Source: Acinetobacter phage Ab5
Sequence record: PP763257.1
Length of the DNA: 64,000 nt
Reading direction: 5' to 3' (one strand)
The notes below the pieces were generated by a model. The model was not told the origin of the DNA, did not search any database, and was given only the letters and a program-made list of their open reading frames with translations. Of the stretch, positions 228 to 64,000 are shown piece after piece. Made by a program: the position numbers and the translations under genes. Position 1 is the first letter of the stretch. Every line of letters starts with the position of its first letter.

Positions 228-232
228 ATAGA

Positions 233-3527: not shown

Positions 3528-3536
3528 GGAGGGAAT

Positions 3537-5572: not shown

Positions 5573-5584
5573 CAAGGAAATAAT

Positions 5585-6001
5585 ATGGACTTCTTCTTAG
5601 ATCAAAACACAAAAGACCTTGTTTTAGTAGATGGTGATTTTAAGATTATTACAACACAACAAGAACAACTAATGCAACGATTATTTATTAGATTAAAAAC
5701 GTTTGCGAGAGATTTATTCTGGAACCCTTCTTACGGTATTGATTACTTAAACAAGGTTTATGGCTTAAATAGAAATAAAAATACAGTTGATGCTTTACTG
5801 TTAAGTGAAATTCAAAAAGAAGAAATGGTTGAGTCGGTGACTTATTTTGAATCTGAAATACAGAATTATAAATACGGATGTAAGTTTTCAGTTAGATTAC
5901 TCTCTGTTGATATTCCAATAATTTTCTACACTTTGGTTACTGAAAACGGATTAACACTCACAGATGAGAACGGAAATATTCTCACTGCTCAATTAGCTTA
6001 G
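5585..6001 (+). CDS. baseplate wedge protein, GpW/gp25-like
   Basis: 138 aa. The segment RLFIRLKTFARDLFWNPSYGIDYL matches the GpW/gp25 signature (L.T..GE....P.FG). Confidence 0.55.
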   Translation: MDFFLDQNTKDLVLVDGDFKIITTQQEQLMQRLFIRLKTFARDLFWNPSYGIDYLNKVYGLNRNKNTVDALLLSEIQKEEMVESVTYFESEIQNYKYGCKFSVRLLSVDIPIIFYTLVTENGLTLTDENGNILTAQLA

Positions 6002-6009
6002 GAGAAATA

Positions 6010-7464
6010 ATGACTATATCGTTTAGTGAGACAGGGATTGTTGTCGACACACAAGAACAAATTAGAGACCAAATGGCAGCTAATGCTAAGGTTAACTTAG
6101 CTCCATTCTTAGGACAAACAGAATTAAAAACAGATGATTCTAGCGTTATTGGCAGGCACTTAGCAACTGTAGCAAGACCAGCAGCACAGAACGCTGAATT
6201 ACTGCAACCAATCTTAGATCAATTTGATCTTAATAAAGCACAAGGTGTGCAATTAGATAACATTCTCTGGAGAATTCACCGCATAAAACGAAAAGGATTG
6301 TCCCAAGCCGAAGGATTGCTCATGTTGTTTGGTGATGTCGGCACAGTTGTTTCAGAAGGTAGTGAGGTATCTAATAGTAAAACAGGTGATGTTTATTCTA
6401 TAAACAATGATGTCACTTTTAATGAAAACGACTGTAATGGTATTGAGATTGTTATATCTTCTGTAGGTGGAACATATACAATAAATTATTCTGTTAATGG
6501 TTTCTTATCAGAATCACCAAGTGTTGTCGTAACTACAGGTGTTAATGATACTACAATCCAACATATTGCAGATCGTATTGTAGATGCTGTTAATTCACAA
6601 ACTTCATATTTAACAGCTTCTAGAAATAATGATAACAGTGTAAAAATTATTATTACAGATCAAAACAATACTGGTGATTTTTCAGTAACAGGAAGTATCT
6701 CAATCGTAAGAGCTTACAAACCTGTTTATGCAACATCACAAACATATCAAGCTGCTGAAAGTAACGCTGGTGACGTTTCTGTTGTACGAACTACTGTATT
6801 AGGTTGGAGAGGTGTTACCAATCCTTTTGTTATTGCAGCATCACAAGGTGTTGAGGAAGACCCTGATTATCGTTACAGAGGTAATCTAATTAAAGGTAAT
6901 ACCAACACATCTTCTCGTAATTCTCTACTTGCAAGAATTGAAGCTGTTCGTGGGGTAAGTTTTTTAAGTATTCAAGCTAACAACACTCCAAATCCAACAG
7001 GGTCAGGAATTATAAATAATGGATTAGCAATCACTGTTCAAGGTGGTAATGAAGACGATATTGCAATTGCAATTGCTGATGCTATCGCAGATGGTATTGA
7101 AACATCTGGAACGATTACAAAAATCACTAAAGATAAAAACGGTGGTGATAAGATTGTTAGATTCTCAAGACCACAGACTGTTCCGTTGAAGATTTCAATG
7201 TCTATTACTATTGCTCCAAACTTCCCTACAAATGGTAAGAATTTAATTAAACAAGCTATTGTGGATTGGTTCAATGAATTGAATGTTGGTGATGATATTT
7301 ACTATTCTCGTCTATATGAACCAATTAACTCAATTTCTGGATTTAGTGTTCGTAATTTAAAGATTGGTAAATTAGACGGTAGTTATGTGACAGATGATAT
7401 TGTTCTTGGACACAATGAAGTAGCAACAATTAGTGCTGAAAATATATTCATTGGTGGTAGTTAA
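6010..7464 (+). CDS. baseplate J-like protein
   Basis: 484 aa. The N-terminal region (AQGVQLDNILWRIHRIKRKGLSQAEGLLMLFGDVGTVVSEGSEV) resembles the baseplate J family. Follows the W-like gene as in P2/Mu. Confidence 0.55.
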   Translation: MTISFSETGIVVDTQEQIRDQMAANAKVNLAPFLGQTELKTDDSSVIGRHLATVARPAAQNAELLQPILDQFDLNKAQGVQLDNILWRIHRIKRKGLSQAEGLLMLFGDVGTVVSEGSEVSNSKTGDVYSINNDVTFNENDCNGIEIVISSVGGTYTINYSVNGFLSESPSVVVTTGVNDTTIQHIADRIVDAVNSQTSYLTASRNNDNSVKIIITDQNNTGDFSVTGSISIVRAYKPVYATSQTYQAAESNAGDVSVVRTTVLGWRGVTNPFVIAASQGVEEDPDYRYRGNLIKGNTNTSSRNSLLARIEAVRGVSFLSIQANNTPNPTGSGIINNGLAITVQGGNEDDIAIAIADAIADGIETSGTITKITKDKNGGDKIVRFSRPQTVPLKISMSITIAPNFPTNGKNLIKQAIVDWFNELNVGDDIYYSRLYEPINSISGFSVRNLKIGKLDGSYVTDDIVLGHNEVATISAENIFIGGS

Positions 7465-7474
7465 GGATTAGATC

Positions 7475-8098
7475 ATGACTATATTAAACAAAGATTATGT
7501 TAGTGAAGCAAGAGAAGGTAGCTCTTCTCTTCTTAATCAGAGTCCGATATATCAAGCATTCTTATCTGCAATTATTGAATATTATGATGAACAGGAAAAG
7601 GATTTAATTTGGTTGTCTGAGAATCTTTTAAATGAAGATGTTGCAGAAAAATGGCATTTAGATTTTATTGGAATGATTGTTGGACAGCCAAGATTACTAG
7701 TTTCATTTAATACAGAACCTTACTTCGGATTCGAAGGAAGCTATCAATCAGAGACTTTCTCAACAGCATCTAATCCTGAGCTTGGTGGTTATTGGAATGG
7801 TATGGATAACTTTAACACATCATCTGCTAGAAGATTGAATGATGAAGAATATAGAAGAGTAATTAAAGCAAGAGTTATTTTCAATAATAGTTTTTGTACA
7901 AGAAATGACTTGTTAAATGTAATTAATTTATTAACAGGTAATACATCTGCATCAATTACACAACCTAGTCATGGTTTATTAAAGATCAGAGCTATAGACA
8001 CACAAGGATTGTTATCTTATTTCATGTCAAGAATAGATTTAGATGACAATATCCTACCTATTGCTCTAGGCGTTAGAGCAGAACAAGTGGAGGTATAA
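7475..8098 (+). CDS. baseplate/tail protein (gpI-like position)
   Basis: 207 aa after the J-like gene. Positional call. Confidence 0.4.
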   Translation: MTILNKDYVSEAREGSSSLLNQSPIYQAFLSAIIEYYDEQEKDLIWLSENLLNEDVAEKWHLDFIGMIVGQPRLLVSFNTEPYFGFEGSYQSETFSTASNPELGGYWNGMDNFNTSSARRLNDEEYRRVIKARVIFNNSFCTRNDLLNVINLLTGNTSASITQPSHGLLKIRAIDTQGLLSYFMSRIDLDDNILPIALGVRAEQVEV

Positions 8099-8099
8099 A

Positions 8100-9146
8100 A
8101 TGTCTGTAGTTAGCAGACCAGATTATTCAGTTGGTGTATGGGCATCAAATGGTGATATTGCAGCACCAACATCTGAAAAAATTGAGATTGGACACATTGT
8201 AGAAAAACCTCTCAAAGAGGTGATGAATTGGATTCAAAACAGACAAGATCGCGGTATTGTCTATTTAATGCAACAAGGTATCTCAGAATGGGTTTCGACA
8301 GAAACTTATCCTTTGAATGCGTATGTTAAAAGAAGTGGCGTTATCTATAAAGCCTCTACGCAAAACGAAGATCGTGACCCTTTATCAAATCCTGATATTT
8401 GGAAATTAGCATTTGATACATATGGTAGTGCAGCAGCAGTTCAGCTTGAAGTAGATAAGATTAAAAGTGAAGAAGGATATCTTGATTTATATGTAAGTAA
8501 AAACAATCCTGTTTTAAACTCAAGAGCAGAAGGCGTTTCTTATGTTGCAGCAGAAGGTCTTCCAACTCTTACAAGTGATGAATATGGATATACTTTTAAA
8601 AATCATCTATTAAGTGGGCTATTTATCGCTGGTAATGATCCTGTTATATTAAAAGATGGTGCAGAAGTTGCTAGGTTCTCTACCCCAACAGACCCTAATG
8701 AATCTTCTAAGAAAGTTGTCACTATGGACGTTTTGTTAGAATTTATCCAAACATATAAAGTTGGTGATATTTATATTACCACTCAGAATGAAAATCCATC
8801 TATCAGACTTGGTTACGGTGTTTGGGAAAGGTATGCTGAAGGAAAAGCTTTAGTTGGTTTCAGTTCATCCACTTCAAATCAAATTCCTGAATGGGTTAAA
8901 ACAGGAGGTGGTGAATATGGTGAATACTCAACAGTACTAGAACCAAATCATTTACCTAAAAAAACAAACTATACTTATCAAAGATTCACCAACCAAACTT
9001 CTGGTGACATTGTAGTTGGTGGTATAGACCCAAATGGTAATGCGAAATACAATAATATCGAACCTATTTTTGGAACAGTCGGTGATCAACCTCACAACAA
9101 TGTTCAACCATCAATTACCGTTTATGTTTGGCGAAGAATTAGTTAA
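8100..9146 (+). CDS. tail/baseplate structural protein
   Basis: 348 aa ORF starting 2 nt after the upstream stop in the tail module. Confidence 0.4.
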   Translation: MSVVSRPDYSVGVWASNGDIAAPTSEKIEIGHIVEKPLKEVMNWIQNRQDRGIVYLMQQGISEWVSTETYPLNAYVKRSGVIYKASTQNEDRDPLSNPDIWKLAFDTYGSAAAVQLEVDKIKSEEGYLDLYVSKNNPVLNSRAEGVSYVAAEGLPTLTSDEYGYTFKNHLLSGLFIAGNDPVILKDGAEVARFSTPTDPNESSKKVVTMDVLLEFIQTYKVGDIYITTQNENPSIRLGYGVWERYAEGKALVGFSSSTSNQIPEWVKTGGGEYGEYSTVLEPNHLPKKTNYTYQRFTNQTSGDIVVGGIDPNGNAKYNNIEPIFGTVGDQPHNNVQPSITVYVWRRIS

Positions 9147-9168
9147 TAGTTAATCAAGGGGAAGATAA

Positions 9169-9567
9169 GTGGAAGGCACAAGCACCACATCTATTATAGG
9201 TCTACTAAAGTTTTTATACCCTTCCTTAATTGGAAGTGCTTTAGCAGTATGGTATAAAAGAAATGATGTAAAATGGAAGGATAAAACTTTAGGTGAGAAA
9301 TTATTTTATAGCTTAGTAGGTATTGGTGCAATTGTTGTTGGTGTTTCCATTGGTCTAGCATTAGGTAATGCACTTATTATTTACTTTGGACTTGTTGAAT
9401 ATTGGTATTGTTTTGGTGTTTACATGTTCTCAAGTCTATCATCACTAAAACTATTAGATGCTGTTGTAAAAAATAGTGATGAAATATTATCAACTGTTTT
9501 TTCTGGTGTCAAGGACGTTGTAAAAACATTCTTTGATACCTTGACATCTAGGTGGAAAAATAAATGA
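9169..9567 (+). CDS. holin/antiholin-like membrane protein
   Basis: GTG start after an AAGGGGAAG RBS. 132 aa with about three predicted TM helices (LIGSALAVWY; LVGIGAIVVGVSIGLALGNALIIYFGL). Sits immediately upstream of the second holin-like gene and the lysin. Confidence 0.45.
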   Translation: MEGTSTTSIIGLLKFLYPSLIGSALAVWYKRNDVKWKDKTLGEKLFYSLVGIGAIVVGVSIGLALGNALIIYFGLVEYWYCFGVYMFSSLSSLKLLDAVVKNSDEILSTVFSGVKDVVKTFFDTLTSRWKNK

Positions 9568-9875
9568 TTATTTATATCGCTCTAATACAACTACTCCTTT
9601 TAATTAATACAATTATTATTTTCATATGTGAACATAGCCCACTTTGGGCTAACACATGGAAAAGTGTACTCATTCGATTCATTGTAGCAATTATCCTTTT
9701 AGTAATTGGTAACTATGTTCCATTACTTGCCTTGTTACCTTATTGGATTACATTTGCTGCTTTCTTCTTATCAATTGTGACCACTGCAATGCTTATCAAA
9801 TATGTAATGGTTGAATACTTTGAACGTGTAAGAAGAGTTTCAAGATTAAGGAGAAGAAAAAGAAATGAAGATTAA
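9564..9875 (+). CDS. holin-like membrane protein
   Basis: 103 aa with three hydrophobic helices and a highly charged C-terminus (RVRRVSRLRRRKRNED). Overlaps neighbours on both sides (ATGA). Confidence 0.5.
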   Translation: MIIYIALIQLLLLINTIIIFICEHSPLWANTWKSVLIRFIVAIILLVIGNYVPLLALLPYWITFAAFFLSIVTTAMLIKYVMVEYFERVRRVSRLRRRKRNED

Positions 9876-10461
9876 TTTTGACAAAATTAGAAATTCACTA
9901 TTTGGTGGAAAATTAAAACAAACACAAGTTGATGGTATTAACTCTATCCTAGAATCAATCAATAAACATGGTATTTCTAAAGAACAGGTTGCATATGTTT
10001 TTGCTACTGTTTATCACGAAACAGCTAGAACCATGCAACCAATTGAAGAGTATGGTAAAGGAAAAGGTAGACCATACGGAACTTGGTATAAGAATTCTAA
10101 AGGTGAGTTATTCTCTTGGAAGAATGGTAATAAGAACACAGCTTATTTATACAAAGATTATCCACACCTATATTATGGTAGATCATTTCCACAATTAACG
10201 TGGTTTGATAATTACGAAAAAGCGGGGAAGATTCTTAATGTTGATTTTTTAAGAAATCCTTCATTAGTTATGGACTTAAAATACGCATCTGAAATCCTAG
10301 TTGTAGGGATGATGGATGGTTGGTTTACACACAAGAAATTATCAGATTATATTAATCATTCTAAAAAAGATTATTACAACGCAAGAAAAATCATAAACGG
10401 AACAGATAAAGCAGCATTAATTGCTGAATATGCTTCTGAGTTTGAAGACGCATTATTTTAA
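9865..10461 (+). CDS. GH19 family peptidoglycan hydrolase (lysin/endolysin), no cell-wall-binding domain
   Basis: 198 aa. The motifs VYHETAR, YGRSFPQLTWFDNYE and IINGTDKAA match the glycoside hydrolase family 19 catalytic signatures (HETG, YGRGxxQLT, NGG). Confidence 0.7.
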   Translation: MKINFDKIRNSLFGGKLKQTQVDGINSILESINKHGISKEQVAYVFATVYHETARTMQPIEEYGKGKGRPYGTWYKNSKGELFSWKNGNKNTAYLYKDYPHLYYGRSFPQLTWFDNYEKAGKILNVDFLRNPSLVMDLKYASEILVVGMMDGWFTHKKLSDYINHSKKDYYNARKIINGTDKAALIAEYASEFEDALF

Positions 10462-13964: not shown

Positions 13965-14843
13965 GTGTTTAAAGGTTTAATTTCAGAAGTAGCAAAAGAT
14001 GCTGGTCGTAGTGCAGCATTAATCATTAATCAATTATTTCAATGGTATAAAGGAAGTAATTCAAAAAAGATTTACCGTACAAATCAAGAGTTACATGATG
14101 ATTTGTGTGGAATCATGTCTACAGCAACAATTCAACGTTGTAAAAAAAGATTGATTGAGAAAGGTTATATTGAAGTTTCTTTTGATAAAGGTTTGAATCG
14201 TGTAACTCACTATTCACTTACAAAGAAAGCTTTAGAATTATTGGATAGCTCTAAAACATCTTCAGAAGCCCGTAGTGAGAAAAAAGAAGGAAAAGGTAGT
14301 GGTGTACCACACACTCCTAAAACATCACCACAACGTGCTAAAACAGGTATTAAAAAGGGTGCTATTGTACACTCATACGGAAATGTCAAATCAATGAAGG
14401 AATGTTTTGAAGAAGGAAGTGATAACAAGAATGCAGATCGTTCTTTAACTCTATCTGAACGACTAGCTCTGATGAAAGGAGAAAAGATTGATTTAAACAA
14501 GCATAATGACGCTTTAGAGCAATGTTTAGATGAAAGTGGTACAAACGTACCAGACAACATTAAAAATGTCTCTATGGAGCTTATAGACAGCTTAAATGAG
14601 GTGTGTAGTGTTAATGAAGAAGATGAACATTTAAATGCTCTATCACAACATGATTACGATGAATGTGATCTTGCTATGTTGAATTCTTTGAATAAGCAAC
14701 AAGAACATTTGACAGATGATAAGTTGACTGTTGGTCAATTATTAGGTAATATTGGTTCTGTATATAAATCAGGTGTGTCAGAAGCTAGAGAAAGAATCTA
14801 TCAGATGTCACAATTACAAAATGGTTACTTGGAGGATTATTGA
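13965..14843 (+). CDS. putative DNA-binding protein (N-terminal winged-helix-like), first gene after the promoter
   Basis: GTG start 7 nt after AGGAGG. 292 aa. The N-terminal ~90 aa resemble a wHTH domain, and the rest is acidic/low-complexity. Confidence 0.5.
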   Translation: MFKGLISEVAKDAGRSAALIINQLFQWYKGSNSKKIYRTNQELHDDLCGIMSTATIQRCKKRLIEKGYIEVSFDKGLNRVTHYSLTKKALELLDSSKTSSEARSEKKEGKGSGVPHTPKTSPQRAKTGIKKGAIVHSYGNVKSMKECFEEGSDNKNADRSLTLSERLALMKGEKIDLNKHNDALEQCLDESGTNVPDNIKNVSMELIDSLNEVCSVNEEDEHLNALSQHDYDECDLAMLNSLNKQQEHLTDDKLTVGQLLGNIGSVYKSGVSEARERIYQMSQLQNGYLEDY

Positions 14844-29561: not shown

Positions 29562-29769
29562 GAAGATTTATAATTTTAGTGTACCTATTTGTGGTGAAGA
29601 GTATTTTAGTGTAATAGCTAGTTCTTATGAAGAAGCTGTAGAAAAGATTAATAGAGAAGAATATTATGTAGAACCAACACTTGATGACATTGATTGGGAT
29701 TTTGGTTTCAGATCAGTTGGTGAAGAGCTTCCCAAATGCTACACTGTAGAAGATTATGATGGAGAGTAA
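29554..29769 (+). CDS. small protein of the recurrent ExxEA family
   Basis: ATG at 29554 after AAGGAGAGAG. Contains KIYNFSV...VIASSYEEAVEKI. Confidence 0.4.
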   Translation: MTKKIYNFSVPICGEEYFSVIASSYEEAVEKINREEYYVEPTLDDIDWDFGFRSVGEELPKCYTVEDYDGE

Positions 29770-39436: not shown

Positions 39437-39613
39437 ATGCAAAAATTATACCTTGTTGAACGTTTAGTCGTTGAGTATCAATATATTGCTGCTGATTCAG
39501 AAGAAGAAGCTATTGAAATTGCAAAAGACACAGGTGAATGGGATAGAGAAACAATTGGTCAAGGTGATGAATTGTTCTATGGTGTTCGTGCAGAATACAA
39601 AGGTGAAGCCTAA
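39437..39613 (+). CDS. small protein (58 aa) of the recurrent ExxEA family
   Basis: MQKLYLVERLVV...IAADSEEEAIEIAKD. Tandem to 39273. Confidence 0.4.
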   Translation: MQKLYLVERLVVEYQYIAADSEEEAIEIAKDTGEWDRETIGQGDELFYGVRAEYKGEA

Positions 39614-39798
39614 TGAGAGATAAAATTTATATAGATGTTGATGAATACGAGAAAATCTATTCAGAAGCACAACATTTATTCTGTGATTACTTAAATGATA
39701 AATTGGGTGTTAATGTTAAACCTAATGATTTTGGTGATTATTGGTACAAAATGGATAATGTTATTTCTTATGATTTAACTTTTGAGAAGGAATATTAA
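39613..39798 (+). CDS. hypothetical protein
   Basis: 61 aa. Confidence 0.4.
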   Translation: MRDKIYIDVDEYEKIYSEAQHLFCDYLNDKLGVNVKPNDFGDYWYKMDNVISYDLTFEKEY

Positions 39799-57417: not shown

Positions 57418-58164
57418 TTAACTCACATCATATAAGTCCTCAAGTAATAAATAACCTTGTTTACGTTTTCCATCAACTTCACTAACCACTTGTGTCTTTC
57501 TAACAACAAAATAATTTCTTATATCGTTACCTACAGCTTTTCTGTTTATATTGAGACTATCGTAAGTTTTTTGTAAAACACTTGTGATATGTGATGATGT
57601 ATACTTTTTACCGGCACGTAAACAACCTAATTTACTTTTTATCTCTAAGTGGTGGTCTTGGAATTTCAAAGCTAAATTGTATGCGTTAAACAGCTTGGTT
57701 TTATTAAAACCAATAGATTTGATCTTATCAACACCTAATACATCAACAAGGAGTTTATGTTCTTCTGAGTAGTTAGATATGTTTTCCACAGTTATAGTAT
57801 CCCCTACTTCAATAGCTTTTATGTATTTTTTCAAAAGTTTACAAAAATCCACCTTGAACCCACATTTCAAATGTTCGAGTGTATTGACTTTGTTGAGTAG
57901 TCTGTTAAACGGTGGAGAAAGTCTAGTGATACATAACTCTTCGTACTTCAATGATTCTTCTTTCGAGCTGAAATATTCTACAATTTCAACCGTAATACAA
58001 CCATCCTCTCCATTCTGAAAGAAATAGCGATTTAAAGCTTTGTTAGAGCTAGTGCCATGTAGACAATGTTTATATCTTTCACCAGAACCTTGTCCAATGT
58101 AAAGAATTTCACCCTCTAACCCTCGTGCAAAGTAAACATAAAACTTTTTCAAACTTTTACTCAA
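57418..58164 (-). CDS. GIY-YIG homing endonuclease
   Basis: The N-terminus FYVYFARGLEGEILYIGQGSGERYKHC carries the GIY-(10-11)-YIG motif with the conserved Arg and Glu. The C-terminal half is a presumptive DNA-binding region. Confidence 0.7.
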   Translation of the reverse strand: MSKSLKKFYVYFARGLEGEILYIGQGSGERYKHCLHGTSSNKALNRYFFQNGEDGCITVEIVEYFSSKEESLKYEELCITRLSPPFNRLLNKVNTLEHLKCGFKVDFCKLLKKYIKAIEVGDTITVENISNYSEEHKLLVDVLGVDKIKSIGFNKTKLFNAYNLALKFQDHHLEIKSKLGCLRAGKKYTSSHITSVLQKTYDSLNINRKAVGNDIRNYFVVRKTQVVSEVDGKRKQGYLLLEDLYDVS

Positions 58165-58188
58165 TTAATAATCTCCAATAATTTTACA

Positions 58189-59487
58189 TTAAATGTTTTC
58201 TTCTTGTAGCCAACCTAAGAACAAGTCCTTCATTCTTTTAGACAAGATAGCAAGATTGATCGGTTTTCCATCTCGTATTGCAGACCTCCAAATAAATTGA
58301 AGCATTTCAGATAAAGCAAACACATCAGCATTTATTGGATATCCATAGTCTTGTAAATAACTAGCAACACTTTGATTCGGATATCGGTCATAAGCATGAA
58401 TAACACAAGTTTTATGTCTATAAGCATTCGTTGCTCTTGTGTTTGATGCCAACCAACAAACATTCTCAGGACACTTTTGTATCTTTAACTCTGTATCTAC
58501 TAAACCGCTAGGTTTAATCTTAGCTGCTTTCGACTTAACATCCAGATTACTTCTATTCTTTGGGAATGTATAAAGCAAATCATAACTAGAAGCTCTCCAC
58601 GAACGAGCAATTGACAGAATGTACCCTTCAATATGTTTAATATCTTGTGTAGACATTTTTGAATATGCAGACACAGATAACTTTAAGTCTTTCTTCCACT
58701 TTTGATTAGTTGGTGAATAAAGATTGATTAATTTAGCTATCTCTTTCTTGCTTGGTACAATTGGTGTAATCTCATCAAATGTTTTATACGGAATCCCCTT
58801 CAACTTTAGAAAACTACTAAGAATATTACCTTCAAACATGTATGTTAAGATAATAGCTCTCTTTGATGATGTAATCAATTTAACAGGAAGCTGTGTAACA
58901 AACATATCATCTTTACGCTTACTAACGTACAACATCTTGTTTTGAACATGTCTTTTAAACTTACTATATTTATGTCTAAAGTCGTCAAATGCTTTATCTA
59001 AGTTACTATCAATATCCTTACCACACCACGTCAACATTCCGTCATTTTCTTGTACACTAATCACACCCAATTCAATTAATGATGTAACATCTGGTGCTGA
59101 GTATGCATGATAATCATCAATCATTGCAATCTCTTCATCTACAACTAACACATAATTGTGTTTCTCCATTTCACTAAAATGCTCATCTGTCATGTTTAGG
59201 TATAGATTATGTGTACATGTAATATTAGCACCAATTCTCAATAATTCTAACAGGTGACTACCTTTTGTGTCATGATGGTTATCCTCATCATCTCTCTTGG
59301 TTTCTGGAGCTACAAATCTAGTTAGTGGACAAGCTTGCTGAATACGACCACCATCTTTAACTTCTTCTAGGAGTGGTGATATATAAAAGAATTTATATAT
59401 GTGATTATTCTCTTCCATCCATTTACAAATCTTAGACGTCTTATGTGACCCCATCATAGCATCTACAATCTCTACAAAATTACTCAT
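58189..59487 (-). CDS. atypical P-loop NTPase; first gene transcribed leftward from the iteron region
   Basis: 432 aa. Walker A-like MMGSHKTSK near the N-terminus and Walker B-like VLVVDEE. The GS(H/Y)KTS form is reminiscent of Zot/pI-type NTPases, but this is from memory and not verified. Confidence 0.5.
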   Translation of the reverse strand: MSNFVEIVDAMMGSHKTSKICKWMEENNHIYKFFYISPLLEEVKDGGRIQQACPLTRFVAPETKRDDEDNHHDTKGSHLLELLRIGANITCTHNLYLNMTDEHFSEMEKHNYVLVVDEEIAMIDDYHAYSAPDVTSLIELGVISVQENDGMLTWCGKDIDSNLDKAFDDFRHKYSKFKRHVQNKMLYVSKRKDDMFVTQLPVKLITSSKRAIILTYMFEGNILSSFLKLKGIPYKTFDEITPIVPSKKEIAKLINLYSPTNQKWKKDLKLSVSAYSKMSTQDIKHIEGYILSIARSWRASSYDLLYTFPKNRSNLDVKSKAAKIKPSGLVDTELKIQKCPENVCWLASNTRATNAYRHKTCVIHAYDRYPNQSVASYLQDYGYPINADVFALSEMLQFIWRSAIRDGKPINLAILSKRMKDLFLGWLQEENI

Positions 59488-59799
59488 CTATATTATTTAC
59501 CTCATATTATTAAAATGACAAACAATATAACACAATAGTATTTATAAAACAACCAATACAATATCAATTGATTAATAAATACACAATTTGTAACATTGGC
59601 GCAATATTCCTAAGGGGATAGGAGATTTCCAGTGTATTTTGTGGTCTTAGTTTTTGGGAAGGTTTACTATAAGGAAAAGGTGTGTAATCTATTGATTAAT
59701 AAGGAATAAAAAATGAGTTTGTAAGGTAATGCCTTACTGGGAATGTAAAACATACTAATTGTATACTTTATGTAACTTTAATATTAACACTAATAAAGA

Positions 59800-60400
59800 C
59801 GTAGTATTGACCTAGTATATGAACGTAGTGATATGACACTTTAAATCAAACACTTATATAAGGATAGTGTTATCTTAATAGCTAATAGTGAACATGTGTA
59901 CACTTAAAAGATAATAGTAAGTTATCAGTAGTGTATTAATAATACCACCAGTAAGGTGTATCAGTAGTGTACATCAGTAGTGCTCTATTAGTGTATCTAT
60001 AAGGGATAACACTAGTGTTATAGTATTATTGAGAACAACTTTAGATTATCTTTAGTGTTGTTGTAGTGTTGGTAAAATACTATCGTAGTGTTAGTAGAAG
60101 ATTACTGTAGTGTTATTGTAGTGTTAATCACCTTAGAAAAATAAATACAACTACTTTAGTGTAAAATAATTTAATAAAATTAAAATTAATTTAAATTATT
60201 TTTAATTAGTTACAATTACATAAAAATAAACTTAATTATTGACACCTTATTATTGACTTTACCCTACTTTAGTGTATATTAGTGTTGGTATTAGTGTTAG
60301 TACTAGTTGTAACACTAGTGTTATTGTAGTGATAGGCATGATCTAAGAGCTACAATTAAGCACAAACTATGTTGTTCTTCTTTGTTATTTAGTGTATTGT
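59800..60400. repeat. iteron array (about twenty copies of the TAGTGTT/TAGTGTA core, including two palindromes AACACTAGTGTT); putative replication origin / regulatory binding-site cluster
   Basis: Direct reading. GTAGTGTT, TTAGTGTT and CAGTAGTGT recur at irregular 9-40 nt spacing. Perfect 12-nt palindromes lie at 60008-60019 and 60311-60322 on either side of a >85% A+T block at 60161-60250. No ORF is present. Confidence 0.6.
60161..60250. promoter_or_regulatory. extremely AT-rich block (candidate DNA-unwinding element) flanked by iterons; tandem TTGACA/TTGACT at its right edge
   Basis: aataatttaataaaattaaaattaatttaaattatttttaattagttacaattacataaaaataaacttaattattgacaccttattattgact. Confidence 0.4.
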
Positions 60401-60595
60401 GTTATAATGAACGAAGTGATATGATGTTTGGTGTTGATGTGTTGTTGTTTGCTCCTGATCAAAGATCAGCTTGATACGAGCATTAGATCATTCTTTGTTG
60501 TGTTGTAGGATATTCCTAATGTTGAAAACAAAATGCCGTTGCTTTTGACCCATAGGGGTATCCTTAGTTAAATTGTTGCTTTACTGGAGTATTAT

Positions 60596-60805
60596 ATGTT
60601 GTTATTTAAGTTATTTATTATAGGATCATTAGTTTGTGTATTCTTAACCTTTTTCTTTATGGTGATTGGTGTTTGTTATGATTTTAACCAACCTAAGTGG
60701 ATTGAAAAGATTATAGATTATTTATCAATCTTTACATTATTTTTGTGTTTAGTGTGGTTGTTAATCATATTTGTTGGTTTAAGTATTTCAGTATTGACAG
60801 CTTAG
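60596..60805 (+). CDS. small hydrophobic membrane protein (69 aa)
   Basis: Two TM helices. GGAG 9 nt upstream. It is the only ORF in the 1.8 kb control region, and whether it codes is uncertain. Confidence 0.3.
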   Translation: MLLFKLFIIGSLVCVFLTFFFMVIGVCYDFNQPKWIEKIIDYLSIFTLFLCLVWLLIIFVGLSISVLTA

Positions 60806-61254
60806 TAGACTATAATTATTAAAATCTCTAAGGCTTACTCTCGCGTGAGCCTGTGAGAGAAATTTTTGGGGAATTTTGCAAAAATAATTTAGAAATATAC
60901 ACAATGAATTATTTTACCACTCTGAAATTAAAAATAATAATTTATCTTTTAGTATAATCACTTTACAAAAATAGTAATTATTTTCTGTTACATTCTTGAC
61001 TTCTTTTTCTTGTTGTGTTATTTACACGCGTTTTTCATTTATAAATAAAGAAAAGACCTGCACGGCGCTCTAATACGTCTTTAAGCGTGTGTTTTGATAT
61101 GTTTCACTACGTTCAACCGTATGTGTATGTTAGCTTTAGGGGTGTTTTGAGATAAGGATCATCTTTATTAGAATAAATATTGTAATGTTTTAATGATTAA
61201 CTCATTGTTTTATAAGAATTAGATAAAAAATATAAAAATAATTTAAAATAGTTG

Positions 61255-61310
61255 TTGACACATTAGAGAGAAATTGTTTTAATAGCTTCATACCGAACGA
61301 GATGTCGTTC
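61255..61310 (+). promoter_or_regulatory. putative promoter plus inverted repeat upstream of the right-hand gene block
   Basis: TTGACA at 61255-61260, 17-18 nt, then TTTAAT/TTAATA. The inverted repeat GAACGAgatgTCGTTC lies at 61295-61310. Confidence 0.35.
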
Positions 61311-61349
61311 AACCAAGCAATAACGCTTAAACATAGAAGGTAGAACATC

Positions 61350-61667
61350 ATGGAATACAAAATCTCTCAATCAGTTAAACAACATGTTAATGCTGCTAAA
61401 TTGATTCAAAAGGCTGCTAAATTAGGAATGAATTTAGATGGTTATGGTTTCTTAGATTATAACTCAACTTATGGTAACACATACTTGTGGTTAGAAGACT
61501 ATATGTTCACACTATATATTAGTGATTTTGATAACACAATTAAAGCATTATACACTTGTAGTTATGATGGTGAAGAGTGGGAGCGTAATGCTGGAACATC
61601 ATTAGATAAGCTTGAAGCTTGGGCATTACGTTGTTACAAGAAATCTGAAAAGAAAGAAGGTAAATAA
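61350..61667 (+). CDS. hypothetical protein
   Basis: 105 aa. GAAGGTAG RBS. Confidence 0.5.
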   Translation: MEYKISQSVKQHVNAAKLIQKAAKLGMNLDGYGFLDYNSTYGNTYLWLEDYMFTLYISDFDNTIKALYTCSYDGEEWERNAGTSLDKLEAWALRCYKKSEKKEGK

Positions 61668-61918
61668 TGAGTATTAAGTATACTGTGTGTAAAAACAAAA
61701 TGAATGATCATCAATATATTGTTTTTAAATACAAGGGTATTTATTACAAAGCGTTGCAGTTTAGCGATTTGGATTTGTGGTTGTGGGTGGATAAATCAGC
61801 TTTTTCTGGTGAATGTTATAACCTACAACTATTAAAAACCTTTAAAAATGATCAAGTGTGCACATTTGATGAAATATATAAAACTGTTTTAGAGTGGTTA
61901 ACTAATGAAACAACGTAA
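61667..61918 (+). CDS. hypothetical protein
   Basis: 83 aa. ATGA overlap. Confidence 0.5.
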   Translation: MSIKYTVCKNKMNDHQYIVFKYKGIYYKALQFSDLDLWLWVDKSAFSGECYNLQLLKTFKNDQVCTFDEIYKTVLEWLTNETT

Positions 61919-62093
61919 ATATACATACCTTAGAGTATTACAACAAAATATCGGTTACGGGTTTGAGGATGTTGATTGTTTTGATCTTCATAACTCAACT
62001 GTACAAGAACGTAAACAACGGTTGAAAGAGTATAGAGAGAATCAACCACAAGCCAATTATCGTTGGGTAGATAGACGGGAGTTAAACAAATGA
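61905..62093 (+). CDS. hypothetical basic protein
   Basis: 62 aa. Confidence 0.45.
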   Translation: MKQRKYTYLRVLQQNIGYGFEDVDCFDLHNSTVQERKQRLKEYRENQPQANYRWVDRRELNK

Positions 62094-62404
62094 ATATCAA
62101 TCAAAAGCAATTAGCAATCTCACAAGGTTATCAAGTATTGAGTTTTGATGAGATGAAAAAGAAACTTAATGAATTAGGTTATGATATTACTAAACAATAC
62201 GTAAAATCGTGGCGATGTGCTAATGTGTGGAATGGTTTAATGTATTATATAACTGGTTGTTTTTTCTTAGGTACAAGTATTTGTTTTGCTAATGTTGCAG
62301 GCAATGAAATTAGAAACTCAATCTCTAAAGAAAAGCAAGATGCCTTTAGAGAATTGAGAATTAATACGTATTTCACAATTGGTAACGATTTATATTGTAT
62401 TTAA
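62090..62404 (+). CDS. hypothetical protein with one TM segment
   Basis: 104 aa. ATGA overlap. Confidence 0.5.
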   Translation: MNINQKQLAISQGYQVLSFDEMKKKLNELGYDITKQYVKSWRCANVWNGLMYYITGCFFLGTSICFANVAGNEIRNSISKEKQDAFRELRINTYFTIGNDLYCI

Positions 62405-62419
62405 GGAGCTTAAAAAAAA

Positions 62420-62632
62420 ATGACTATCCGTGTACATTGTTATGAAAATATACAGAATGACAGTAAGATGATGAAAATACACATTTACAAAAATGGCAAC
62501 TTTGTTTCATCATCAAATAAGATGCCTTATTGTGAACGTACAATTAAGTTATATGCTAGAGGGCATAAGGTTGTAGAGTTGATTAATGTTGCTAAGAGCA
62601 GAGATTTAAATGTTAAGGAAATTATGATATGA
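62420..62632 (+). CDS. hypothetical protein
   Basis: 70 aa. AAGGAG RBS. Confidence 0.45.
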   Translation: MTIRVHCYENIQNDSKMMKIHIYKNGNFVSSSNKMPYCERTIKLYARGHKVVELINVAKSRDLNVKEIMI

Positions 62633-62934
62633 AGATAACAAAAGATCATGCTTTATTCTATGCAAGTAAGAAAAGTAAAGTCTTTTCTTGTGATGTATCA
62701 ATTCATAGTTTGATTAATTCGCAAATAGAGTTATCTAAAAACTTTATTGATAAACATAATGACTTAACAATCATTAGATCATTATATCAACGTTGTATTC
62801 GTAATGATCTTAACTTATATGCAGAATTCAGAAGGTTACTTGAGTCGAGCACTACAATACGACCAAATAGGGCTAGAATGTGTAAAAACATTCTAAAGGG
62901 GTTAAGAAAGAATAAATATTTAAAAAGAATGTGA
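62629..62934 (+). CDS. hypothetical basic protein
   Basis: 101 aa. Confidence 0.5.
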   Translation: MKITKDHALFYASKKSKVFSCDVSIHSLINSQIELSKNFIDKHNDLTIIRSLYQRCIRNDLNLYAEFRRLLESSTTIRPNRARMCKNILKGLRKNKYLKRM

Positions 62935-62983
62935 GTGTAAAGCTTGCATTCTTTTTTGTTGTCTGTATAATGAAAAATATAAA

Positions 62984-63199
62984 ATGATAGATAGGAATAA
63001 TATCATGCATTTCCGTGAAGTTAACAACAAGCTTAAACAACTAAAGTCAGAAGTTATGTGGTGCAGTAAAGCTTTATCTTTCGCTAATGTGTCTAATGAA
63101 GTTTATCAAGCTAAAGTTCGAGCATTCTTTCAAGCTCAAAAAGAGTTAGAGCTATTTCGTAATACAACATTAAAGGAGCTATCATCATGTACAGTTTAG
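62984..63199 (+). CDS. hypothetical protein
   Basis: 71 aa. Confidence 0.45.
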   Translation: MIDRNNIMHFREVNNKLKQLKSEVMWCSKALSFANVSNEVYQAKVRAFFQAQKELELFRNTTLKELSSCTV

Positions 63200-63357
63200 T
63201 TATTATGTTCTTTTTAAATAATGGTATGAAATATGACACTACAATCGTTAAGTCTAACATGTCTAAAAAATCTTGTTTGCTGCTATCATCACAGTTAATG
63301 GAAAACTTACAAGGATCTAATTATGAGCTTAAATGTGTACCTACAAAGGATGAGTAA
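63187..63357 (+). CDS. hypothetical small protein (56 aa)
   Basis: AAGGAG RBS 8 nt upstream of the ATG. Not in the ORF track. Confidence 0.4.
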   Translation: MYSLVIMFFLNNGMKYDTTIVKSNMSKKSCLLLSSQLMENLQGSNYELKCVPTKDE

Positions 63358-63358
63358 T

Positions 63359-63535
63359 ATGTTATATTCTTTAATTCTTGTTTTAACCTTATCTGGAAAT
63401 TCTAATGAAGTAGTTTTGAAGGAACAATTAACACAAGATGAATGCGTTGCTATAATGCAAGAATCAAGCTACAAATACAAAACAGATAAAACTGAAATAA
63501 TTTGCCGTAACGATGAATTTACATTAGTTATTTAA
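63359..63535 (+). CDS. hypothetical small protein with a hydrophobic N-terminus (possible signal peptide)
   Basis: ATG at 63359 is 8 nt after AAAGGA. MLYSLILVLTLSGNSNEV. The track start at 63323 overlaps the preceding small ORF. Confidence 0.4.
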   Translation: MLYSLILVLTLSGNSNEVVLKEQLTQDECVAIMQESSYKYKTDKTEIICRNDEFTLVI

Positions 63536-63551
63536 AATTTCAACAACACAT

Positions 63552-63576
63552 AGCCCCTTGATTGGGGCTTTTTTAC
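63552..63576 (+). terminator. rho-independent terminator
   Basis: AGCCCCttgattGGGGCT followed by TTTTTT. Confidence 0.65.
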
Positions 63577-64000
63577 ATCTATATAAAACATATCTTAGAA
63601 TACTTCTAATATCATTCATTATAACGCCGTATAGCAGCTTTATAGCAACGTTATAGAGTTTTAAGCTAGGGTAGTACCTTAACGTATTAAAGTGTCTGTA
63701 ATAAGCTTAGAATGAGTAATAAAGACATGTTTAAAATTCTCTTTATAGAATTTAATTTGTATTGTTTCTTTAATCTTATCTCAAAATTAAATATCAAATC
63801 TTTTTAGCTTAAGGGTATCTGTTAAGGAGCTTGTTTGTATGTTTGTAAATAAAGATATAAGAAATAATTTAAATCAAGTGTGGTGAATCTTTAAAGCTTT
63901 GTGGGGATATACCAGTGATCATAAAAAGAAAAGTATTAATCTTTGAAGTGATATTACTCGATATTTTATAGGAAAAACCGATCGAAAAGACCTAGCCCTC

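What the first reader, a model, noticed from the sequence alone, without database searches (positions are those of the whole stretch)
59800..60400. Iteron array with paired palindromes and an AT-rich unwinding block: candidate origin of replication at the divergent-transcription point
About 600 bp with no ORF carries roughly twenty copies of a TAGTGTT/TAGTGTA core (GTAGTGTT, TTAGTGTT, ATCAGTAGTG x3). Two copies form perfect 12-nt palindromes, AACACTAGTGTT at 60008 and 60311, and these bracket a near-pure A+T stretch at 60161-60250. Iterons plus a DNA-unwinding element between divergently transcribed early gene blocks is the classic architecture of a phage or plasmid origin with an initiator/repressor binding array. 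The adjacent leftward gene (58189-59487) is a P-loop NTPase. The array could alternatively be the operator cluster of a dimeric early regulator or a packaging/injection-stop signal. None of these roles has been assigned.
Basis: partly seen in the sequence, partly recalled or inferred. Interest (0 to 1): 0.8.

Follow-up and report, generated by a model that had tools for sequence, protein, structure and literature searches.

The report
Short-repeat array at phage terminal-repeat boundary
The repeat array is real, but it sits exactly on the left edge of the phage's roughly 3.9-kb direct terminal repeat, so it is more likely the end-forming and early-promoter region of the genome (as in T7 and T5) than a classical replication origin.

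Summary
TAGTG occurs 23 times (20 on +, 3 on -) in 59780-60400, against 3.8 +/- 1.8 in local dinucleotide shuffles. Neighbouring copies are 10-13 bp apart. No second cluster exists in the window. The A+T block at 60140-60239 is the least stable 100-bp duplex in all 64 kb.

The window is the right end of a roughly 95-kb Acinetobacter myophage of the B9/TaPaz/Ab3-TPeters group. The GenBank records of Ab3-TPeters and B9 carry exact direct terminal repeats (DTRs) of 3,972 and 4,915 bp. Their left boundary falls inside the array, at window 60126|60127 (B9) or 60136|60137 (Ab3), right after the last left-hand repeat. So 60137-64000 is the right-hand DTR copy.

The boundary box plus A+T core is 87-92% identical in five relatives. 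The repeats around it turn over (29-72%). T7, T5 and the AM24-like phage Ab15 also have one-orientation short repeats at a DTR boundary.

Two correlates of an iteron origin fail. The neighbouring gene is swapped between relatives, and the phage's initiator-like protein does not co-vary with the motif. There are no DnaA boxes in the array.

My best reading is a concatemer-junction and end-formation element that also carries early promoters. An origin is not excluded.

The parts
59763..59850 (.). Left conserved block that opens the array. It holds one inverted copy (TAACACTA, 59785-59792) and the first + copy (59826).
   Evidence: It is 77-92% identical to the window in all five relatives, even where the DNA further left is unrelated (32-37%).
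59826..60024 (+). Repeat cluster A. TAGTG starts at 59826, 59865, 59886, 59929, 59965, 59978, 59989 and 60013, plus an inverted copy at 60010. It includes the 16-nt palindrome ATAACACTAGTGTTAT (60006-60021), which is specific to this phage.
   Evidence: Identity to relatives is 57-69%, although the motif is kept. The palindrome is absent from relatives.
60053..60126 (+). Repeat cluster B. TAGTGTT starts at 60053, 60064, 60086, 60108 and 60119 in an 11-bp register. This is unique DNA lying just outside the terminal repeat. The last unit, TAGTGTTA, ends at 60126.
   Evidence: The final ...TTGTAGTGTTA before the boundary box is kept in 5 of 6 phages.
60122..60136 (.). Boundary box GTTAATCACCTTAG. 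The left end of the direct terminal repeat falls at 60126|60127 (homologous to the B9 record) or 60136|60137 (homologous to the Ab3-TPeters record).
   Evidence: Ab3-TPeters 1-3972 equals 91811-95782 exactly, with the junction ...GTTAATCACCTTAG|ACAAATAAATAC. B9 1-4915 equals 88727-93641 exactly, and its record starts ATCACCTTAGACAAAT. The box is also kept in BS46 and Phab24.
60137..60245 (.). Highly conserved A+T-rich core, the first ~110 bp of the terminal repeat. It contains one repeat copy (60157), TTACAATTACA and ATTATTGACA, and it holds the least stable duplex in the window.
   Evidence: The segment 60122-60245 is 87-92% identical to the window in all five relatives. Stability is -96.8 against -121.2 +/- 5.7 kcal/mol per 100 bp. 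GC is 0.12.
60253..60280 (+). Rightward sigma-70-like promoter, TTGACT-16 nt-TATATT. Its -10 hexamer overlaps the repeat copy at 60270.
   Evidence: Consensus scan, 10 of 12 matches. An equivalent -35/-10 pair is visible in relatives in alignment A1 (by eye). Not verified experimentally.
60270..60334 (+). Repeat cluster C, inside the terminal repeat. Copies start at 60270, 60280, 60292, 60304 (degenerate TAGTTG), 60316 and 60327, with an inverted copy at 60313. It includes the palindrome TAACACTAGTGTTA (60310-60323).
   Evidence: It is present in 5 of 6 phages (6-8 + copies within 450 bp right of the boundary) and missing in phiAB441. The palindrome core CACTAGTG is kept in those 5.
60390..60408 (+). 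Solitary repeat copy (60390) followed by an extended -10-like TGTTATAAT (60400-60408). This is a second candidate rightward promoter.
   Evidence: Read from the sequence. It is conserved in TaPaz, MD-2021a and phiAB441 in alignment A1. Identified by eye only.
60451..60485 (+). Conserved hairpin in the rightward leader. The outer stem GCTC/GAGC is invariant. The inner stem is CTGATC/GATCAG here and in MD-2021a, but CTAAGAC/GTCTTAG in B9, TaPaz and Ab3.
   Evidence: Alignment A1 and single-sequence folds of -10.9 to -15.4 kcal/mol.
60137..64000 (.). Right-hand copy of the direct terminal repeat (3,864 bp by the Ab3 convention). It carries the rightward block of small early genes.
   Evidence: The window's last 200 nt match the last 200 nt of the Ab3-TPeters record with one mismatch and end on the same base...GACCTAGCCCTC. 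The DTR is shown directly in Ab3 and B9. For this phage it is inferred by homology.

Best explanation
The region is the cis-acting junction between unique DNA and the direct terminal repeat (DTR). In replicating concatemers it is the place where the left genome end is made.

Shown:
- In the two closest DTR-resolved relatives the left DTR boundary lies within 10 bp after the last TAGTGTTA of cluster B and at the start of the highly conserved A+T core.
- The window ends on the DTR's last base.

Inferred mechanism:
- The conserved box GTTAATCACCTTAG plus the A+T core is the site that the terminase recognises and cuts.
- The easily melted core then lets a polymerase start strand-displacement copying of the DTR from the nick. 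This is the classical scheme for duplicating a terminal repeat (established knowledge for T7-type phages, cited from memory).
- The TAGTGT(T/A) units sit on one face of the helix, in one orientation, in three clusters of about 70 bp. They would be phased binding sites for a lineage-specific phage DNA-binding protein that has not been identified. That protein would wrap or bend the junction, give it polarity, and position or license the cut.
- Cluster C overlaps the -10 and start site of the rightward early promoter, and the copy at 60157 overlaps a leftward -35-like hexamer. Occupancy by the same protein would therefore also switch off early transcription once packaging begins.
For: 1. DTR boundary inside the array. 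Ab3-TPeters has an exact 3,972-bp repeat at both record ends, with the junction ...GTAGTGTTAATCACCTTAG|ACAAATAAATAC, which corresponds to window 60136|60137. B9, deposited by a different group, has an exact 4,915-bp repeat whose boundary lies 10 bp further out. The window ends on the same base as the Ab3 record.
2. Conservation pattern. The box plus A+T core is 87-92% identical in five relatives, while the repeat clusters are 29-72% identical yet keep the motif, its orientation and its placement on both sides of the boundary. The box is also kept in BS46 and Phab24, which lack TAGTGT and carry other short direct repeats just left of it.
3. The same arrangement recurs at DTR boundaries in other DTR phages.
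   - Ab15 (AM24-like, exact 5,018-bp DTR) has 4-5 copies of a 24-bp repeat ending about 20 bp before its left boundary.
   - T7 has the 7-mer CCTAAAG in one orientation at roughly 12-13-bp spacing on both flanks of its 160-bp repeat and inside it.
   - T5 has 10 copies of GTGCAAATCC in one orientation, 7 left and 3 right of the end of its left terminal repeat, in a long untranslated region (Davison, bioRxiv 10.1101/866236).
4. The array is unique in the genome, as expected for a single cis site.
5. The array is independent of its neighbours. The left flank is a swappable cassette, and in Ab3 and MD-2021a it is not even divergently transcribed. The array is therefore not simply the control region of a leftward operon.
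6. The A+T core is the least stable duplex in 64 kb.
Against: - No binding protein has been identified. The 117-aa protein upstream of the large terminase subunit, a positional candidate for the small subunit, is 88% identical in Phab24 (no TAGTGT) and 85% in TaPaz (TAGTGT). It therefore does not co-vary with the repeat, and it has no PHROG match.
- There is no mirrored array at the right DTR boundary.
- The sequence around the right boundary is missing in TaPaz.
- The function of the analogous T7 and T5 repeats has itself never been established, so the analogy shows where such arrays sit, not what they do.
- The DTR boundaries come from GenBank records, not from reads that I could inspect. 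The two records differ by 10 bp at both ends.
- The boundary lies close to the early promoter, so adjacency to the boundary and adjacency to the promoter are partly confounded in this phage group.
Confidence: 0.45

Rival explanations
1. Operator array for early transcription only. A phage regulator made early or in the middle of infection binds the TAGTGT units cooperatively and represses the promoters in and around the A+T core. It has no role in end formation. The A+T block acts as a shared upstream (UP) element or curved region for strong early promoters.
For: - A promoter-like TTGACT-16 nt-TATATT lies at 60253-60280, with repeat copies over its -10 and from +1 to about +45.
- An extended -10-like TGTTATAAT lies at 60400-60408, just after the copy at 60390.
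- A leftward TTTACA-16 nt-TATTTT at 60165-60138 overlaps the copy at 60157.
- The 11-bp phasing fits cooperative one-face binding. This resembles the R1 parC/ParR arrangement of 11-bp repeats flanking a promoter (from memory).
Against: - Clusters A and B lie about 130-430 bp upstream of the rightward promoter and are unnecessary for simple occlusion.
- In Ab15, T7 and T5 the equivalent repeats do not overlap the main promoters but do abut a DTR boundary.
- In Ab3 and MD-2021a there is no adjacent leftward operon to regulate, yet the left clusters are kept.
- No regulator gene lies next to the array. The first downstream gene encodes a 69-aa hydrophobic protein with no family match.
- Promoter-like sites are not enriched over shuffles in this region: 16 found against 13.4 +/- 4.2.
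Confidence: 0.2
2. Origin of replication. The repeats are iterons for a phage initiator, the A+T block is the unwinding element, and replication forks or a transcript-primed R-loop start here.
For: - The array abuts the least stable duplex of the window.
- It is the only repeat array in the genome.
- The phage encodes an initiator-like protein (window 13965-14843) with weak PHROG matches to replication-initiation, O-like and DnaD-like families. No convincing iteron set lies in or near its own gene.
- Promoters next to an A+T block recall the promoter-plus-A+T origins of T7, including the secondary ones near the genome ends at phiOL and phiOR (the promoters are annotated; their origin function is from memory).
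Against: - The adjacent NTPase is replaced by an SF1 helicase cassette or other genes in relatives that have the same repeats.
- The initiator-like N-terminal domain does not co-vary with the repeat type: 50% identity between this phage and TaPaz, 55% between this phage and Ab15, 15% between this phage and BS46.
- The repeat core is only 7-8 bp at 11-bp spacing, unlike typical 17-22-bp iterons.
- There are no DnaA boxes in the array, and they are fewer than expected across the window: 6 against 14.8.
- An origin gives no reason for the array to end on the DTR boundary in three lineages that each use a different repeat sequence.
Confidence: 0.15
3. DNA-entry pause signal, like the T5 injection stop signal. 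If the right end enters first, the 3.9-kb terminal repeat with its early genes and promoter enters. Transfer then stalls at the repeat clusters until early proteins are made.
For: - The geometry matches. A long untranslated, repeat- and palindrome-rich region straddles the inner DTR boundary, as in T5, where 'iss' is annotated at 9140-10149 beside the repeat end at 10219.
- The DTR holds only small early-type genes.
Against: - The paired DnaA boxes stressed for the T5 signal are absent here.
- It is not known which end enters first.
- Two-step transfer has not been reported for this group in the papers I could read.
- Half of the array (clusters A and B) lies outside the DTR and so is present at only one end.
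Confidence: 0.07

Closest known systems
Phage T7 short repeats flanking the 160-bp terminal repeat (called SRL and SRR in the 1983 T7 genome paper, from memory)
   Same: - A short unit (CCTAAAG, 7 nt) in a single orientation at roughly 12-13-bp spacing.
- About 12 copies just inside the left repeat, about 5 just before the right repeat, and more inside the repeat, so the array straddles the concatemer junction.
- An A+T-rich stretch and the early promoters follow.
- The function is unassigned.
   Different: - There is no sequence or protein homology. T7 is a podovirus with a 160-bp repeat, against a myovirus with about 3.9-4.9 kb here.
- T7 has repeats on both outer flanks of its repeat. Here they surround only the left boundary.
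- The T7 repeats do not overlap the major early promoters.
Phage T5 'Repeat Region 3' / injection stop signal region at the inner end of the left terminal repeat
   Same: - An untranslated region of more than 1 kb with direct repeats and palindromes straddles a long-DTR boundary.
- Ten copies of GTGCAAATCC in one orientation lie on both sides of the boundary (bioRxiv 10.1101/866236).
- The region is conserved across relatives while the neighbouring genes vary.
   Different: - T5's array lies at the downstream (right) boundary of the repeat, not at the promoter side.
- It contains paired DnaA boxes, which are absent here.
- Its spacing is irregular (25-57 bp).
- There is no homology.
Terminase recognition sites built from short repeats around the cut: P1 pac hexamers, lambda cosB R sites, SPP1 pacL/pacR (from memory)
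   Same: - A cut position is flanked on both sides by clusters of a short oriented motif.
- Bendable A+T-rich DNA lies next to the cut.
- There is a single site per genome.
   Different: - In those systems the binder is the small terminase subunit and the site lies in or beside the terminase genes.
- Here the site is far from the terminase genes, and the positional candidate for the small subunit does not co-vary with the motif.
- Those phages make cohesive or headful ends, not long exact repeats.
Iteron origins (lambda ori, P1 oriR, plasmid Rep-iteron origins; phage P4 ori/crr with 8-bp type I repeats)
   Same: Direct repeats lie next to an A+T-rich, easily melted block, and the repeats are helically phased.
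   Different: - The unit is 7-8 bp rather than 17-22 bp (P4 is the exception).
- There are arrays on both sides of the A+T block.
- No cognate initiator is linked or co-varying.
- There are no host DnaA boxes.
- The array ends at a physical genome end.

Membership tests
Short-repeat arrays at DTR boundaries / concatemer junctions (T7 and T5 type) | The genome has an exact direct terminal repeat | tested here: met
   Exact repeats of 3,972 bp (Ab3-TPeters) and 4,915 bp (B9) lie at both record ends. The window ends on the same base as the Ab3 repeat. For the window phage itself this is inferred by homology.
Short-repeat arrays at DTR boundaries / concatemer junctions (T7 and T5 type) | The array abuts or straddles a repeat boundary within untranslated DNA | tested here: met
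   The boundary is at 60126|60127 or 60136|60137. There are 13 + copies within 450 bp to the left and 7 within 450 bp to the right. The region has no ORF of 30 aa or more apart from 60382-60474.
Short-repeat arrays at DTR boundaries / concatemer junctions (T7 and T5 type) | A short unit in one orientation, many copies, roughly one helical turn apart | tested here: met
   20 + copies against 3 - copies, with spacing of 10-13 bp and multiples. T7 shows the same pattern.
Short-repeat arrays at DTR boundaries / concatemer junctions (T7 and T5 type) | Required in cis for end formation, packaging or entry | not testable with these tools
   This needs mutant phages or in vitro packaging. It is not established for T7 or T5 either.
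Iteron-type replication origin | Several direct repeats next to an A+T-rich unwinding element | tested here: met
   The unit is shorter than classical iterons (7-8 informative positions).
Iteron-type replication origin | A cognate initiator gene linked to, or co-varying with, the repeats | tested here: not met
   The neighbouring gene is swapped between relatives with the same motif. The winged-helix domain of the initiator-like protein is 50% identical between phages with the same motif and 55% identical between phages with different repeats.
Iteron-type replication origin | Host initiator sites (DnaA boxes) in the origin | tested here: not met
   TTWTNCACA does not occur in 59488-60595. It occurs 6 times in the window against 14.8 expected. 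This feature is not obligatory for phage origins.
Iteron-type replication origin | Replication initiates at the site | not testable with these tools
   This needs marker-frequency sequencing or 2-D gels.
Terminase pac/cos recognition site | The genome end maps to the site | tested here: met
   (relatives' records).
Terminase pac/cos recognition site | The repeats are bound by the small terminase subunit (specificity co-varies) | tested here: inconclusive
   The only positional candidate (117 aa, upstream of the large subunit) has no family match and does not co-vary with TAGTGT. It was found in the same eight records, and all the phages among them whose junction I inspected keep the box GTTAATCACCTTA. 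It could therefore read the box rather than the repeats.
T5-type injection stop signal | Paired DnaA boxes within inverted repeats in the untranslated part of the repeat | tested here: not met
   The definition is taken from bioRxiv 10.1101/866236.
T5-type injection stop signal | Two-step DNA transfer | not testable with these tools
   Not mentioned in the TaPaz paper. The B9 paper is not held in the library.
Autoregulated operator / centromere-like array (R1 parC type) | Repeats flank or overlap a promoter | tested here: met
   Cluster C lies over the -10 and the start site of TTGACT-16 nt-TATATT. The promoter itself is only a consensus match.
Autoregulated operator / centromere-like array (R1 parC type) | The cognate small DNA-binding protein is encoded immediately downstream | tested here: not met
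   The first downstream gene encodes a 69-aa hydrophobic protein. None of the seven small DTR proteins tested has a PHROG match, and the 69-aa protein, the only one also tested against Pfam, has no match there either.

The most novel reading that the evidence does not exclude
One-orientation arrays of lineage-specific short repeats at a terminal-repeat boundary may be a general, unrecognised class of cis element in DTR phages. Examples would be T7 CCTAAAG, T5 GTGCAAATCC, the B9-group TAGTGT and the AM24-like 24-mers. Each would be read by a fast-evolving phage 'end-marking' protein that tells the conserved terminase where the repeat begins and primes its duplication. This would explain how long exact terminal repeats are made. 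It would also give a function to the T7 junction repeats, which as far as I know (from memory) have had none since T7 was sequenced in 1983.
Probability: 0.2. Interest if true: 0.7.

Novelty: new member of a known kind. Interest (0 to 1): 0.4.

Why it matters
- It fixes the physical genome end, and a candidate cut site (GTTAATCACCTTAG followed by the A+T core), for a group of Acinetobacter baumannii phages that are being developed for therapy. This matters for correct genome records, for engineering, and for judging packaging type and transduction risk.
- It shows that the repeats next to the cut site differ completely between lineages that share the same box, and that the same kind of array recurs in T7 and T5. 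Clusters A and B are single-copy DNA lying outside the repeat, so they can be mutated cleanly. This group is therefore a convenient system for asking what junction repeats do, a question that to my knowledge is still open for T7 and T5.
- It is also a caution. Repeats next to an A+T-rich block are not enough to call an origin in a phage with terminal repeats.

Tried and rejected
- RNA element: Rfam found nothing in 59000-61500 at E-value up to 1.
- Phage-wide promoter motif: CTACTTTAGTGTA and TAGTGT are not enriched outside the array, so the motif is not a dispersed promoter element.
- Second array elsewhere, or a mirrored array at the right DTR boundary: none found.
- Iterons inside the initiator-like gene: only 2-3 weak copies of CTAAAACA in the linker-coding part. 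I did not pursue this further.
- Co-variation of the repeat with the initiator-like winged-helix domain and with the 117-aa protein upstream of the large terminase: no correlation in either case.
- Genome-wide presence/absence screen for a binder (TaPaz ORFs present in this phage but absent from BS46): more than 60 candidates, so uninformative.
- More relatives in IMG/VR. The 19-mer TAGTGTTATTGTAGTGTTA gave no hit. The 14-mer box gave 120 chance hits, none related to the region.
- Literature on the termini of this group. The TaPaz paper and a 2024 review do not mention terminal repeats. The B9 paper is not held. Two keyword searches for T7 junction repeats returned nothing useful.
- Chi-like recombination hotspots near a DNA end: I considered this but did not test it, because no host genome statistics were available. 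It has a low prior, since the motif is not G-rich and lies 3.9 kb from the right end.
- Sequence shared by the left and right boundaries: nothing convincing.
Full report
**What is in the sequence**

The stretch 59488-60595 has no ORF of 30 aa or more, apart from a 30-aa TTG ORF at 60382-60474. Within 59780-60400 the pentamer TAGTG occurs 23 times, 20 on the + strand and 3 on the - strand. Two thousand dinucleotide-preserving shuffles of the same 621 bp give 3.79 +/- 1.82, with a maximum of 12. TAGTGT occurs 19 times against 2.49 +/- 1.48. Density is 37 per kb against 1.9 per kb in the rest of the window.

A position matrix built from the + copies shows information only at T-A-G-T-G-T-(T/A), so the unit is about 7-8 bp. 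Neighbouring copies are 10-13 bp apart, with multiples at 21-24 and 33-36 bp. The copies form three clusters:
- A, 59826-60024.
- B, 60053-60126, an 11-bp register with 5 of 7 slots filled.
- C, 60270-60334.

The two AACACTAGTGTT palindromes are at the stated positions. The A+T block is real (GC 0.12). 60140-60239 is the least stable 100-bp duplex of the whole 64 kb, at -96.8 kcal/mol against a mean of -121.2 (sd 5.7). No other array of this kind exists in the window or in the first 50 kb of the relative TaPaz.

**Where the window comes from**

The region matches six Acinetobacter baumannii myophages of about 88-96 kb: B9, TaPaz, phiAB441, Ab3-TPeters and two MD-2021a assemblies. Over the last 20 kb the closest is Ab3-TPeters at 93.7% identity, and the window's end coincides with the end of that record.

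In all of them the region is non-coding, or carries only tiny and inconsistent gene calls. TAGTGT is the top 6-mer in four of the six intergenic regions and among the top few in the other two. The strand bias is the same throughout: 12-20 + copies against 2-6 - copies.

**The key finding**

The Ab3-TPeters record begins and ends with the same 3,972 bp: positions 1-3972 equal 91811-95782, with 3972 of 3972 bases identical. That is a direct terminal repeat (DTR). Its left boundary reads ...TTGTAGTGTTAATCACCTTAG|ACAAATAAATACAACTACTTTAGTGTAAAAT... and aligns to window 60136|60137.

The B9 record, from a different laboratory, begins and ends with the same 4,915 bp. It starts ATCACCTTAGACAAATAAATAC, which is 10 bp further out at the left, and likewise 10 bp further out at the right. 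In window coordinates this boundary is 60126|60127, the base after the last TAGTGTTA of cluster B.

The window's last 200 nt equal the last 200 nt of the Ab3 record with one mismatch, and they stop on the same base. Window 60137-64000 is therefore the right-hand copy of the DTR. The 'iteron array' is the junction between unique DNA and the DTR. Clusters A and B lie just outside the repeat. The A+T core, cluster C and the rightward block of small genes lie inside it. For the window phage itself this is an inference by homology, because its left end is not in the window.

**Conservation pattern**

In an alignment of the six intergenic regions I measured identity to the window segment by segment.

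| Segment | Identity to the window |
|---|---|
| Boundary box plus A+T core, 60122-60245 | 87-92% in all five relatives |
| Cluster A | 57-69% |
| Cluster B | 29-43% |
| Cluster C | 31-86% |

The repeats turn over in number and position while keeping the motif, its orientation and its presence on both sides of the boundary. There are 7-13 + copies within 450 bp to the left of the boundary and 6-8 to the right. The exception is phiAB441, which has lost the right cluster.

The DNA left of 59763 is shared only by phages that have the same left neighbour gene (32-37% identity otherwise). That neighbour varies:
- In this phage, B9 and phiAB441 it is a 432-aa protein (PHROG 2467, unknown function) plus a GIY-YIG-like protein.
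- In TaPaz it is a 444-aa homologue plus a 187-aa protein.
- In Ab3-TPeters and MD-2021a it is a UvrD-like SF1 helicase plus a 269-aa protein, on the opposite strand.

The array is therefore independent of its left neighbour. In two relatives it is not even at a divergent-transcription point.

**More distant relatives**

BS46 and Phab24 have a non-coding region of 0.9-1.2 kb at the same map position. It keeps the landmarks GTTAATCACCTTAC, TTACAATTACA and (in BS46) ATTATTGAC. It has no TAGTGT array. Just left of the box there are other short direct repeats instead: AAAAGAGTAATAAC twice at 21 bp, and TGGAATGG two or three times at about 22 bp.

Ab15, an AM24-like phage of the sister cluster deposited with resolved ends, has an exact 5,018-bp DTR. 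Four to five copies of a 24-bp repeat (GGGATAACCTCTGGGTTTAC...) end about 20 bp before its left boundary. So three lineages carry three unrelated repeat sequences in the same place.

**Comparison with model DTR phages, checked on their sequences**

- T7: CCTAAAG occurs 8 times, and its core TAAAG 12 times, in 161-400. It also occurs about 5 times in 39610-39720 and several times inside the 160-bp repeat. All copies are in one orientation and roughly 12-13 bp apart. The phiOL promoter, an A+T-rich stretch and the early promoters A1-A3 follow.
- T5: the record annotates the left terminal repeat as 1-10219 and the injection stop signal as 9140-10149. GTGCAAATCC occurs 10 times in one orientation, 7 left and 3 right of that boundary. 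Davison describes this untranslated 'Repeat Region 3' as mostly in the repeat but overrunning into unique DNA by 270 bp, and as conserved among T5-like phages while the neighbouring genes are not (bioRxiv 10.1101/866236).

One-orientation short repeats at a DTR boundary are thus a recurrent feature of otherwise unrelated DTR phages. Their relation to promoters differs between phages. They are downstream of the pre-early genes in T5, upstream here, and mostly clear of the major promoters in T7. The boundary is the common denominator.

**Tests of the origin reading**

1. The adjacent gene cannot be the specific binder, because it is swapped between phages with identical repeats (see above).
2. 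The protein from 13965-14843 has weak PHROG matches to replication-initiator, O-like and DnaD-like families and an N-terminal winged-helix-like domain. That domain is mosaic. The first 240 nt or so are only weakly alignable with TaPaz, while the rest of the gene is nearly identical. N-terminal amino-acid identity is 50% between this phage and TaPaz (same repeat), 55% between this phage and Ab15 (different repeat) and 15% between this phage and BS46. It does not co-vary with the repeat.
3. There are no DnaA boxes in the array, and there are fewer than expected in the window: 6 against 14.8.
4. The initiator-like gene has no convincing iteron set of its own. This is the one point that leaves the array as the only candidate binding array in the genome.

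The origin hypothesis is therefore neither supported by linkage nor excluded.

**Tests of the packaging reading**

The genome end maps here, and the box plus core is the most conserved part. The positional candidate for the small terminase subunit is a 117-aa protein upstream of the large subunit. It has no family match and is 85-88% identical in both TAGTGT and non-TAGTGT phages, so it is not the TAGTGT-specific factor. It was found in the same eight records, and all the phages among them whose junction I inspected keep the GTTAATCACCTTA box. This is compatible with the terminase reading the box and core, and with another lineage-specific protein reading the repeats.

There is no mirrored array at the right boundary. 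Just outside that boundary, GCTTGGTATTAAAT...TATAAATAGTCAAATTT is conserved in Ab3, B9 and MD-2021a, but it is missing in TaPaz.

**Promoters**

A consensus scan finds TTGACT-16 nt-TATATT at 60253-60280, reading rightward, and TTTACA-16 nt-TATTTT at 60165-60138, reading leftward. Promoter-like sites are not enriched over shuffles in this region. By eye there is also an extended -10-like TGTTATAAT at 60400-60408.

Repeat copies overlap the -10 and start region of the first promoter and the -35 of the second. A protein bound to the repeats would therefore probably also repress early transcription. This is an inference.

**Verdict**

The most likely explanation (about 0.45) is a concatemer-junction and end-formation element:
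- a conserved cut site plus an easily melted core at the start of the DTR;
- phased binding sites on both sides for an unidentified lineage-specific protein that shapes the junction and gives it polarity;
- a secondary role in switching off the early promoters that sit in it.

The rivals are an early-promoter operator array only (0.2), a replication origin (0.15) and a DNA-entry pause signal of the T5 kind (0.07). The remainder is unassigned. It includes a purely structural or selfish repeat expansion.

The finding is a new member of a known but functionally unsolved kind of element, which is why I score its interest as moderate.

Noticed in passing
window 57418-59487; L004:2945-5228 (Ab3-TPeters); L002:3896-5797 (TaPaz): The slot just left of the array is a variable cargo site. 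This phage, B9 and phiAB441 carry a 432-aa protein with Walker-like motifs (PHROG 2467) plus a GIY-YIG-like 248-aa protein. TaPaz carries a 444-aa homologue plus a 187-aa protein. Ab3-TPeters and MD-2021a carry a UvrD-like SF1 helicase plus a 269-aa protein on the other strand.
   Followed up: partly
window 60451-60485: A hairpin in the rightward leader is conserved, with its whole inner stem exchanged: CTGATC/GATCAG here and in MD-2021a, CTAAGAC/GTCTTAG in B9, TaPaz and Ab3. The outer stem GCTC/GAGC stays invariant. This points to a structured RNA or DNA element such as a processing site or attenuator.
   Followed up: partly
window 60547-60563: GACCCATAGGGGTATCC is a small G/C hairpin just upstream of the first DTR gene. 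BS46 has CCCCGTAGGGGTATGC at the same place. It resembles TTCCCCCATAGGGGGTACC inside the T7 terminal repeat. This may be coincidence.
   Followed up: no
window 13965-14843: The initiator-like gene is mosaic. Its first 240 nt or so (the winged-helix domain) align only weakly with TaPaz, while the remaining 640 nt are nearly identical. CTAAAACA occurs three times (14251, 14317, 14338) in the linker-coding part.
   Followed up: partly
window 60596-60805: The first gene of the terminal repeat encodes a 69-aa, strongly hydrophobic (probably two-helix membrane) protein with no family match. An ORF of the same size sits at the same position in B9, TaPaz and BS46. A terminator-like hairpin follows at 60838-60859.
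   Followed up: no
B9 record ends (L009:1-10, L001 end) versus Ab3-TPeters record ends: The two independently deposited terminal repeats differ by exactly 10 bp at both ends. B9 includes ATCACCTTAG on the left and GCTTGGTATT on the right, and Ab3 excludes both. This is either a method artefact or a real feature of the ends.
   Followed up: partly
L006:1-76 and L002 end (TaPaz record): The TaPaz record repeats 76 bp at its two ends, which looks like a circular-assembly overlap, and it starts at an arbitrary point inside the early block. It also lacks the sequence around the right DTR boundary that Ab3 and B9 share.
   Followed up: no
whole window: DnaA-box consensus TTWTNCACA is under-represented: 6 matches against 14.8 +/- 3.8 expected, and all 100 shuffles had at least 6.
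   Followed up: no
window 29571-29613: Two copies of TTTTAGTGTA lie 30 bp apart. This is the only place outside the array with adjacent repeat-like units.
   Followed up: no
L003 end (phiAB441 record 87700-87975): phiAB441 lacks the right-hand repeat cluster and the rightward promoter. Its 'circular' record breaks about 115 bp further on, inside a tandem duplication of about 60 bp. This suggests an assembly break at the terminal-repeat region.
   Followed up: no
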